From IMG/VR virus record IMGVR_UViG_3300032087_006376, positions 1 to 64,000 of that record: a DNA stretch of 64,000 bases, one strand, 5' to 3'. The stretch is from a virus. Below, piece by piece: positions 62,729 to 62,843 of this stretch. The position numbers were made by a program, and so were the translations under genes. The notes beneath the pieces were generated by a model. That model made no database searches. It saw nothing but the letters and a program-made list of their open reading frames with translations, and had not been told where the DNA came from. Within the stretch, counting starts at the first letter, position 1; each line of letters starts with the position of its first letter.

Positions 62729-62734
62729 GTGTAA
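62729..62734 (+). promoter_or_regulatory. GTGTA(A/T) motif with no downstream ORF
   Basis: Precedes a structured non-coding stretch. Confidence 0.55.
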
Positions 62735-62741
62735 TATGTAT

Positions 62742-62843
62742 TAGCGCAACAACACTGGATGTTCATTTTCGCTAAGTGAAATCCAGTAAGACCCCGTAGC
62801 GCATCAAAAAATTCCAAGTGTTTTTTGAAGGGGTCTTTTTTCT
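62742..62843 (+). ncRNA. Candidate ~100-nt small RNA with two hairpins and a loop-bulge pseudoknot
   Basis: Stems ACTGGAT/ATCCAGT, TTCATTT/AAGTGAA, AAGACCCC/GGGGTCTT, TCAAAAAA/TTTTTTGA; ends in a T tract. Confidence 0.6.

What the first reader, a model, noticed from the sequence alone, without database searches (positions are those of the whole stretch)
62729..62843. Orphan promoter followed by a candidate bistable/pseudoknot small RNA
This is the only GTGTAA motif I found with no ORF behind it. It is followed by hairpin 1 (62754-62787), hairpin 2 (62788-62837, with an 8-nt bulge GTAGCGCA) and a T tract. TAGCGCA occurs twice (62742-62748 and 62797-62803). The hairpin-1 loop CGCTA (62770-62774) is complementary to TAGCG in both, so the loop can pair with either the 5' leader or the bulge, giving two alternative pseudoknots. 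I see no tRNA or hammerhead signature. Inference: a late-expressed phage sRNA, a packaging/structural RNA, or a new ribozyme or switch.
Basis: partly seen in the sequence, partly recalled or inferred. Interest (0 to 1): 0.7.

Follow-up and report, generated by a model that had tools for sequence, protein, structure and literature searches.

The report
Conserved small RNA of aquatic phages
An uncultured aquatic phage and about 40 related contigs carry a conserved, roughly 100-base non-coding RNA gene with two hairpins and two identical unpaired AGCGCA boxes.

Summary
The + strand folds far better than shuffles (z -4.45).

The element is not a chance terminator region. I found it in about 40 contigs, giving 20 distinct sequences in three clades (neighbouring clamp loader 98% to 60% identical). 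It always lies between a small Zn-ribbon gene and an AT-hook gene.

Four features are invariant or nearly so:
- the phage upstream motif GTGTAA(T/C)AT
- TAGCGCA about 13 nt downstream of the motif start
- GCGCA (AGCGCA in 19 of 20) in the internal loop of the terminator hairpin
- the U tract

Both hairpins drift in sequence but keep pairing: 14 of 28 pairs show compensatory changes, and 93% of cells are paired against 55% or less in slid controls. No ORF on either strand is conserved. Rfam and ARAGORN find nothing.

Best reading (about 0.55): a stand-alone phage small RNA of about 100 nt, made from a phage-type promoter and ended by its own intrinsic terminator. The two AGCGCA boxes would be its recognition sites.

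Expression could not be tested. This is a new member of a known kind, of moderate interest.

The parts
62549..62716 (+). Upstream neighbour: 55-aa CxxC...CxxC Zn-ribbon protein with an acidic tail. It matches no known family.
   Evidence: ORF. Pfam and PHROGs give nothing significant. Homologues precede the RNA in all three clades. In five relatives this ORF runs through the GTGTAATAT motif and stops at the TAG of TAGCGCA.
62729..62737 (+). GTGTAATAT: phage-type upstream motif, a putative single-element promoter.
   Evidence: Invariant in 19 variants; GTGTAACAT in the 20th. It is the most enriched upstream 7-mer in the genome. It lies 13-19 nt before start codons with no Shine-Dalgarno sequence, and does so in clade B too. 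The phage encodes sigma-like proteins. Promoter activity itself is inferred.
62742..62748 (+). Box 1: TAGCGCA, unpaired, at or next to the predicted 5' end of the RNA (about 62742-62743).
   Evidence: Invariant in all 20 variants while the flanks vary. Unpaired in every single-sequence fold, apart from minor or partial pairings in the L148 and L192 minimum-energy folds. The 5'-end position is inferred from the motif-to-ATG spacing at other sites.
62754..62787 (+). Hairpin 1: conserved in structure, variable in sequence, with a variable loop.
   Evidence: Predicted at the same place in all 16 variants folded singly. On the model-guided alignment, 8 of its 14 pairs show compensatory changes. Example: C62764-G62778 becomes U-A in L002.
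62788..62841 (+). Hairpin 2 plus U tract: an intrinsic terminator. GACCCC/GGGGUC base stem, asymmetric internal loop, A/U upper stem, apical loop containing GUG, then U6.
   Evidence: The base stem is 100% paired, with 3 covarying pairs (C-G to G-C in 9 of 19). RNAalifold also recovers it de novo on a MAFFT alignment. The upper stem has 3 covarying pairs. TTTT is invariant.
62797..62803 (+). Box 2: TAGCGCA in the internal loop of hairpin 2.
   Evidence: GCGCA is invariant in 20 of 20 and AGCGCA in 19 of 20. The 3' arm never carries a Watson-Crick complement. An alternative 5-bp pairing AGCGC:GUGUU (two G.U pairs) competes with the upper stem in part of clade B.
62865..62893 (+). Downstream neighbour: sigma-70-like promoter TTGACA-17-TAAATT of the next gene. 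Not part of the RNA.
   Evidence: TTGACA is conserved in clade A and clade C. The ATG at 62902 follows the -10 element by 8 nt.
62902..63138 (+). Downstream neighbour: 78-aa AT-hook-like protein, followed by a clamp-loader-like AAA+ gene at 63226.
   Evidence: The gene order is the same in clades B and C.

Best explanation
A stand-alone, phage-encoded small non-coding RNA of about 100 nt (roughly 62742 to 62841, + strand).

Proposed steps:
1. Host RNA polymerase, redirected by a phage sigma-like factor, starts about 13 nt after the first base of the single-element motif GTGTAATAT. The RNA therefore begins at or next to the invariant UAGCGCA (inferred).
2. Hairpin 1 is a structural spacer. Its shape is selected, not its sequence or loop (shown by covariation).
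3. Hairpin 2 plus the U tract ends the transcript and protects its 3' end. The anatomy is shown; the activity is inferred.
4. The working parts are the two identical boxes (U)AGCGCA. One is at the 5' end and one is displayed in the internal loop of the terminator hairpin. They are either twin seeds for pairing with UGCGCU-containing RNA or twin binding sites for one sequence-specific protein (inferred).

In genomes where the upstream Zn-ribbon ORF reads through the motif, the layout matches a 3'UTR-embedded sRNA with an internal promoter.
For: Conservation across relatives:
- 20 distinct variants in about 40 contigs and three clades. The neighbouring clamp loader is 98-77% identical in clade A and 60% in clade B. 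Gene order is the same throughout.
- Invariant blocks are GTGTAA(T/C)AT, TAGCGCA, GCGCA, CCC/GGG and TTTT. Everything between them drifts.

Structure:
- 93% of cells are paired, against 35-55% when partners are slid.
- 14 of 28 pairs and 79 cells show changes on both sides.
- The covariation score is 0.413 against 0.151 +/- 0.015 in shuffles (0 of 500 reach it).
- Every variant folded alone gives the same two hairpins.

Strand: the + strand folds at z -4.45 and the - strand at z -1.68. G.U pairs are used. This points to RNA made from the + strand.

Non-coding:
- The - strand 55-aa ORF exists only in the window and L037.
- The mini-ORF MFIFAK has no ATG in L038.
- 1-nt indels occur between close relatives.

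The motif is selected in its own right:
- It is invariant whether it lies in the upstream ORF's coding sequence (5 variants) or in a spacer.
- The RNA persists when the Zn-ribbon gene is replaced by a T5orf172 gene (L002) and when a 242-aa gene is inserted behind it (L134).

Promoter class:
- GTGTAA is the top upstream word in the genome, at a fixed 13-19 nt before start codons.
- Sigma70_r2-like ORFs are present.
- 62729 is the only such site in 127.7 kb without an ORF.

Specificity of the model:
- Matches to the promoter-plus-box pattern alone score 15-25 bits. True members score 54-139 bits.
- 58 of 59 chance matches to the two-box pattern do not hit the model at all.
Against: - No expression data.
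- Outside its 6-nt core, the 62729 site is only an average match to the motif flanks (under 12 bits on a PWM where gene-linked sites score 13-23).
- GTGTAA could be an RNA-level signal rather than a promoter.
- No partner is known. No conserved UGCGCU site lies within 6 kb in any clade, and AGCGCA is not a genome-wide regulatory word. The host is unknown.
- The model-guided alignment leans towards the model's structure. On a plain MAFFT alignment, RNAalifold recovers only the base stem of hairpin 2.
- There is no A/U-rich linker between the hairpins of the kind typical of Hfq-type sRNAs.
Confidence: 0.55

Rival explanations
1. It is only the 3' end of the upstream operon. In this reading it is a terminator with an extra protective hairpin, acting in cis as an mRNA stabiliser or insulator between the accessory-gene block and the replication block. 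There is no transcript of its own.
For: - Hairpin 2 plus U6 is a textbook intrinsic terminator, placed 12 nt after (or directly at) the stop codon of the upstream gene.
- It is followed at once by a fresh sigma-70-like promoter.
- Virulent phages are known to yield 3'UTR-derived small RNAs by processing (PMC10914365).
Against: - A plain terminator needs neither an invariant GTGTAATAT nor two invariant AGCGCA boxes. The next terminator, at 63144-63165, is a simple hairpin.
- The 7-8-nt internal loop weakens the terminator, yet it is kept in 20 of 20 variants.
- The element survives replacement of the upstream gene.
Confidence: 0.2
2. It is a cis-acting leader or attenuator. A factor that binds the two AGCGCA boxes on the nascent RNA (from the GTGTAA start or from upstream) would modulate termination at hairpin 2. 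That would control read-through into the AT-hook and clamp-loader genes.
For: - The order is promoter, structured leader, terminator, genes.
- Box 2 abuts the 5' arm of the terminator base stem.
- The upper part of hairpin 2 can switch between UCAAAA:UUUUGA and AGCGC:GUGUU.
- Premature-termination RNAs in 5'UTRs are common in phages (PMC10914365).
Against: - No alternative antiterminator pairing exists. Nothing upstream can pair with GACCCC or GGGGUC.
- Both conformers keep the base stem and the U tract.
- The downstream genes have their own conserved TTGACA promoter.
- In L134 a 242-aa gene on the other strand separates the RNA from those genes.
Confidence: 0.1
3. One reading: a bistable RNA in which the hairpin-1 loop CGCUA pairs either with the 5' leader UAGCG or with the bulge UAGCG, giving two alternative pseudoknots, a switch or a ribozyme.
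For: - The 5-nt complementarity is real in the window.
- It is kept in six variants (window, L037, L038, L039, L045, L046), although the hairpin-1 stem differs in L045/L046.
Against: - It is absent in 13 of 19 variants: L002, L040, L050, L054 and all of clade B, where the loops are UUUU, AAU, UAUU or UUUAC.
- It is also absent in clade C.
- The leader and bulge never change while the loop does, and there are no compensatory changes.
- Rfam finds no ribozyme.
Confidence: 0.05
4. It is a DNA-level element. The two AGCGCA boxes would be binding sites for a DNA-binding regulator or initiator (an operator, or an origin next to the replication genes), and the hairpins would be incidental.
For: - Direct repeats 49-55 bp apart lie beside replication genes and two promoters.
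Against: - Compensatory changes keep the RNA helices, including G.U pairs that would be A.C mismatches on the other strand.
- Folding is strand-asymmetric.
- Box spacing varies from 49 to 55 bp, so helical phasing is not kept.
- Box 2 is always left without a Watson-Crick complement in the hairpin's 3' arm.
Confidence: 0.06
5. It is an accessory RNA of the TasR/IS110-like RNA-guided nuclease encoded 3.4 kb downstream in the same phage. Earlier notes of this scan describe that nuclease.
For: - All three contigs in which I could find a TasR homologue also carry this RNA: the window's own record, the contig of L002, and IMGVR_UViG_3300030117_007876.
Against: - Its anatomy does not fit the guide hairpin unit of this phage, which is TTCA-N5-TC, stem-loop, TCA-N5-TC.
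- Its boxes are invariant rather than variable like guides.
- In the contig of L002 the two lie about 20 kb apart.
- No TasR hit came from the 24 clade-B contigs, though that search finds only close relatives.
Confidence: 0.04

Closest known systems
3'UTR-embedded sRNAs with their own promoter inside or at the end of the upstream gene (type I, e.g. DapZ, MicL; from my own knowledge of enterobacterial sRNA biology)
   Same: - The putative promoter lies in the last codons of the upstream ORF in five variants.
- The RNA shares that mRNA's intrinsic terminator.
- A short, conserved, single-stranded 5' segment is followed by variable structured parts.
   Different: - It is phage-encoded and has a non-sigma-70 motif.
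- The conserved motif occurs twice, the second time inside the terminator hairpin.
- There is no A/U-rich Hfq-type linker.
- No target or chaperone is known, and expression is not shown.
ncRNA candidates of virulent phages (phiKZ, PAK_P3 ncRNA1/2, YuA and others; PMC10914365, read)
   Same: - Short RNAs bounded by a promoter or processing site and a terminator.
- Conserved among related phages at a fixed gene position.
- Function unknown.
   Different: - Those were found by transcript mapping and are conserved at over 90% identity within a genus.
- This one was found by sequence alone.
- It is supported by compensatory changes across clades down to 60% identity of the neighbouring protein.
- There is no sequence or Rfam relation to them.
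sRNAs with a repeated short recognition motif shown in unpaired regions (e.g. UCCC-motif sRNAs of Firmicutes, GGA-motif CsrB/RsmZ sponges; from my own knowledge)
   Same: The same short motif is presented more than once in unpaired contexts on a hairpin scaffold, and the scaffold sequence is free to drift.
   Different: - The motif AGCGCA matches no known protein or anti-SD recognition word.
- There are only two copies.
- One copy sits in an internal loop of the terminator rather than in an apical loop.
Intrinsic (Rho-independent) terminators
   Same: Hairpin 2 has a G+C-rich base stem directly followed by a U tract.
   Different: It carries a conserved 7-8-nt asymmetric internal loop with an invariant sequence. 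It is preceded by a second conserved hairpin and a conserved upstream motif.

Membership tests
Any Rfam 15 family (includes hammerhead and other ribozymes, riboswitches, known sRNAs) | Covariance-model score at or above the family's gathering threshold | tested here: not met
   No match at gathering score in the whole window. In 62400-63300 at E up to 10, the only + strand match touching the element (62686-62754, its first bases only) is snoU54: 17.3 bits against a threshold of 35, E 1.5.
tRNA / tmRNA | Cloverleaf or tmRNA fold detectable by ARAGORN | tested here: not met
   No genes found in the window.
Intrinsic terminator | G+C-rich stem-loop immediately followed by a run of U on the transcribed strand | tested here: met
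   GACCCC...GGGGUC plus U6. The stem is 100% paired with 3 covarying pairs, and TTTT is invariant. The simple scanner missed it because its apical loop, taken with the internal loop, exceeds the scanner's 3-8-nt rule. Termination activity is not testable here.
Stand-alone bacterial/phage sRNA gene | Own promoter giving a primary 5' end | tested here: inconclusive
   The upstream motif is conserved and is of the class found before 16 or more genes. Sigma-like ORFs are present. No transcript data were available.
Stand-alone bacterial/phage sRNA gene | No conserved protein-coding frame | tested here: met
   ORFs on either strand are not conserved, and there are frame-breaking 1-nt indels.
Stand-alone bacterial/phage sRNA gene | Secondary structure under selection (compensatory changes) | tested here: met
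   14 of 28 pairs have changes on both sides. The covariation score exceeds all 500 shuffles and all slid controls. Caveat: the alignment was fitted to the model. De novo, only the hairpin-2 base stem is recovered.
Hairpin guide RNAs of this phage's TasR-like nuclease (earlier notes of this scan) | Outer stem, TTCA-N5-TC, inner A/T stem-loop, TCA-N5-TC, outer stem, with variable N5 segments | tested here: not met
   Compared with the units at 59840-59946, 65909-66064 and 67283-67812. Neither hairpin has the symmetric internal loop or the TCA/TC boxes, and the conserved segments here are invariant.
   Present in 6 of 19 variants, with no change on both sides in any pair.
Transcription attenuator / riboswitch | Mutually exclusive antiterminator that sequesters an arm of the terminator base stem | tested here: not met
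   No upstream segment is complementary to GACCCC or GGGGUC. The alternative folds change only the upper helix.

The most novel reading that the evidence does not exclude
The RNA is a twin-site decoy or RNP core. A rigid two-hairpin scaffold presents two invariant AGCGCA boxes, one at the 5' end and one in the terminator's internal loop. Box 2 can be hidden or exposed by the competing helix AGCGC:GUGUU. The boxes would capture a sequence-specific protein. Candidates are a host defence or RNA-processing nuclease, or the acidic Zn-ribbon protein encoded directly upstream. Alternatively the RNA could self-associate through the palindromic GCGC cores. Either way this would be a new kind of phage RNA-based takeover or anti-defence device.
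Probability: 0.15. Interest if true: 0.7.

Novelty: new member of a known kind. Interest (0 to 1): 0.45.

Why it matters
Small RNAs of virulent phages are mostly known from transcript maps of a few model phages, and almost none has a known function. This family was found from sequence alone in uncultured aquatic phages.

It has unusually clear comparative support:
- a fixed genomic position
- covarying helices
- two invariant 6-7-nt boxes that mark where the function must lie

That gives a compact, testable object: about 100 nt with two boxes to mutate. It also gives indirect evidence for a second, phage-specific promoter class (GTGTAA) that appears to produce leaderless or near-leaderless mRNAs. 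If the boxes turn out to bind a host or phage protein, it would add an RNA-based takeover or anti-defence mechanism.

Tried and rejected
- Rfam at gathering and permissive thresholds, and ARAGORN: nothing.
- blastn against 50,697 GenBank phage records: no match. The DnaE-type polymerase finds only relatives below 33% identity, so there is no cultured relative.
- Exact 15-mer across the hairpin junction in IMG/VR: 14 hits, of which only the known close relative is real.
- Covariance model on 100 loci of relatives with a clamp loader 50% identical or less: no element. Those phages keep the AT-hook and clamp-loader genes but have other sequences upstream.
- Mini-ORF MFIFAK inside hairpin 1: kept in L002 (MFIFSK), but the ATG is absent in L038 and others. 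Rejected.
- Minus-strand 55-aa ORF 62704-62871: present only in the window and L037. Rejected.
- GTGTAA as a strong consensus site: the PWM shows the flanks carry little information, and 62729 matches the core only.
- Search for a conserved complementary UGCGCU site within 6 kb in 24 loci: none at a homologous position.
- AGCGCA as a genome-wide signal: 28 + strand copies against 17 expected, nearly all inside genes. No pattern.
- Link to the TasR-like system: searching whole records of relatives failed for most because they are not held. The homologue scan found two contigs only. No firm co-occurrence statistic is possible.
- De novo RNAalifold on plain MAFFT alignments misaligns hairpin 1 between clades. 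It returns only the outer stem of hairpin 1 and the hairpin-2 base within clade A, and only the hairpin-2 base across all clades.
- Literature search for a GTGTAA phage promoter: nothing relevant.
- Earlier notes of this scan hold no look-alike of this element on other DNA.

Full report
**What is there**

The window is the first 64 kb of a 127.7-kb IMG/VR virus record (33% G+C, estimated 88% complete). The phage has a DnaE-type polymerase, a ClpB-like ATPase and a class II ribonucleotide reductase. It has no cultured relative.

- GTGTAA at 62729
- TAGCGCA at 62742-62748
- hairpin 1 at 62754-62787
- hairpin 2 at 62788-62837, whose 8-nt internal loop GUAGCGCA holds the second TAGCGCA (62797-62803)
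- a T6 run

The + strand folds at -32.8 kcal/mol, z -4.45 against shuffles. The - strand gives only z -1.68. Rfam and ARAGORN find nothing.

**The GTGTAA motif**

As a bare hexamer GTGTAA is not enriched. AGTGTAA/GTGTAAT, however, is the most over-represented 7-mer in the 60 nt upstream of genes in the whole genome (11 regions against 0.86 expected). TTGACA-type words come second.

The motif starts 13-19 nt before start codons, with no Shine-Dalgarno sequence in between. The same arrangement occurs in distant relatives.

The other apparently ORF-less sites turned out to have a 49-aa ORF, a GTG-start ORF, or to lie in the stem of another RNA. So 62729 is the only such site in 127.7 kb with nothing to translate.

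The phage encodes two weak sigma-70 region-2-like proteins. That fits a single-element promoter read by a phage sigma, but promoter activity is inferred. Outside the 6-nt core, the site at 62729 is only an average match.

**Relatives**

The neighbouring clamp-loader gene brought in 18 metagenome loci at 77-98% protein identity. Fourteen of them, plus one IMG/VR contig, hold the element.

A pattern made of the two invariant 5' blocks found 24 more IMG/VR contigs. A covariance model built from clade A alone scores these at 54-65 bits over its full length. Chance matches to the pattern score 15-25 bits.

A second pattern, made of the two boxes only, gave 59 new stretches. Exactly one of them hits the model, at 55 bits. 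It has GTGTAACAT in place of GTGTAATAT.

Gene order is the same in all three clades: M78-like gene, Zn-ribbon gene, RNA, AT-hook gene, clamp loader. The clade-B clamp loader is 60% identical to the window's. Relatives at 50% or less lack the element.

**What is conserved**

Across 19 aligned variants the invariant blocks are GTGTAATAT, TAGCGCA, the CUG/CAG base of hairpin 1, CCC/GGG of hairpin 2, GCGCA in the internal loop, and TTTT. The twentieth variant agrees, apart from one promoter base.

The helices drift but stay paired:
- 93% of cells are standard pairs, against 35-55% when partners are slid by 1-3 columns.
- 14 of 28 pairs and 79 cells have changes on both sides.
- The covariation score is 0.413 against 0.151 +/- 0.015 in shuffles.

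That alignment was fitted to the model, which favours it. As independent support, each of 16 variants folded alone gives the same two hairpins. RNAalifold on a plain MAFFT alignment recovers the hairpin-2 base stem with three covarying pairs.

**Not coding, and not just the neighbour's tail**

The 55-aa minus-strand ORF exists only in the window and one near-identical relative. The six-codon ORF in hairpin 1 is not kept, and single-base indels separate close relatives.

In five variants the Zn-ribbon ORF reads through GTGTAATAT and stops at the TAG of box 1. In the others it stops before the motif. The motif is invariant either way.

In L002 the Zn-ribbon gene is replaced by a T5orf172-domain gene right up to the motif. 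In L134 a 242-aa gene is inserted just behind the terminator. The RNA is intact in both.

The hairpin-1 loop CGCUA is complementary to both boxes in the window. This holds in only 6 of 19 variants, and in none of clades B or C.

The nearest relative breaks it twice: loop G62771U and bulge U62797C. No pseudoknot pair shows compensation. The boxes never change while the loop does.

What I did see is a different possible bistability. In hairpin 2 the conserved GUG(U) of the apical loop can pair with AGCGC of box 2. This competes with the A/U upper stem. The alternative is equal or better in energy in parts of clade B. It cannot be tested by covariation because both partners are invariant, whereas the A/U upper stem does covary. 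The GCGC cores of the two boxes are also self-complementary, which would allow a leader-loop contact or dimerisation. That, too, is untestable here.

**Most likely working**

I read this as a stand-alone small RNA of about 100 nt. It would be made from the GTGTAA-type start and ended by its own terminator. Hairpin 1 would be a spacer, and the two (U)AGCGCA boxes would be recognition sites for an RNA target or a protein.

What is shown:
- conservation of the element
- structure under selection
- non-coding status
- terminator anatomy
- independence from the upstream gene

What is inferred:
- transcription start
- discreteness of the transcript
- role of the boxes

I found no partner. No conserved UGCGCU site lies nearby, and AGCGCA has no genome-wide pattern.

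**Rivals**

The rivals are a pure 3'-end module of the upstream operon, a box-binding attenuator for the downstream replication genes, a DNA-level site, and an accessory RNA of the TasR-like nuclease noted earlier in this scan.

On the last of these, the element does not fit that system's hairpin unit. Linkage could not be properly tested, although the three contigs with a detectable TasR homologue all carry the RNA.

**Comparison and verdict**

The layout resembles 3'UTR-embedded sRNAs with an internal promoter. It also resembles the many ncRNA candidates now mapped in virulent phages (PMC10914365). It belongs to no described family, and the scan holds no look-alike on other DNA.

It is a new, well-supported member of a known kind, with an unexplained twin-box feature.

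Noticed in passing
whole genome, e.g. window 6020, 28571, 38906, 41311, 48197; G000 109833, 115542, 117616: Genes behind the GTGTAA motif have their start codon 13-19 nt after the motif's first base and no Shine-Dalgarno sequence. This suggests leaderless or near-leaderless mRNAs from a phage-specific promoter class. The same arrangement is seen in clade-B contigs.
   Followed up: partly
window 62865-62904: The AT-hook gene's ATG (62902) lies only 8 nt after the -10 element of a TTGACA-17-TAAATT promoter, so this host-type transcript would also be leaderless. The next gene (63226) does have an AAGGA Shine-Dalgarno sequence.
   Followed up: no
window 9040-9678 (-) and G000 110959-111672 (+): Two ORFs with weak sigma-70 region-2 or phage sigma-factor similarity (Pfam 24.6 and 15.3 bits; PHROG E 1e-4 and 1e-3). 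They are candidates for reading the GTGTAA motif.
   Followed up: partly
L002 2200-2496: In the closest IMG/VR relative, the Zn-ribbon gene is replaced by a T5orf172/MUG113 (GIY-YIG-like) gene (E 4e-16). The junction falls a few codons before the RNA's upstream motif, which looks like a mobile-gene replacement.
   Followed up: partly
L134 7807-8535 (-): A 242-aa Cys-rich gene with its own GTGTAA motif is inserted on the opposite strand between the RNA's terminator and the AT-hook gene in one clade-B phage. It is possibly a homing-type insertion.
   Followed up: no
L063 1059-1143: A more distant relative that lacks this RNA carries a tRNA-Leu(UAA) with a T-run behind it, upstream of the same AT-hook and clamp-loader module.
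   Followed up: partly
G000 121592-121940: An ORF of about 110 codons that starts with GTG 14 nt after a GTGTAA motif is missed by ATG-only gene calling. A Gly/Ser/Thr-repeat (collagen-like) ORF begins at 121940.
   Followed up: no
G000 68849-68998: A 49-aa hydrophobic, membrane-like small ORF lies behind a GTGTAATAT motif (68835), just after the guide-hairpin array region.
   Followed up: no
IMGVR_UViG_3300025652_009361 (L002, L160): In the close relative, the TasR-like gene (85% identical) lies about 20 kb from the RNA. In this genome it lies 3.4 kb away, so the region between them has been rearranged or expanded.
   Followed up: no
window 63144-63165: A plain intrinsic terminator (9-bp G+C-rich stem, T run) follows the AT-hook gene, then a TTGACT-17-TAGATT promoter. 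Each small gene here appears to be its own transcription unit.
   Followed up: no
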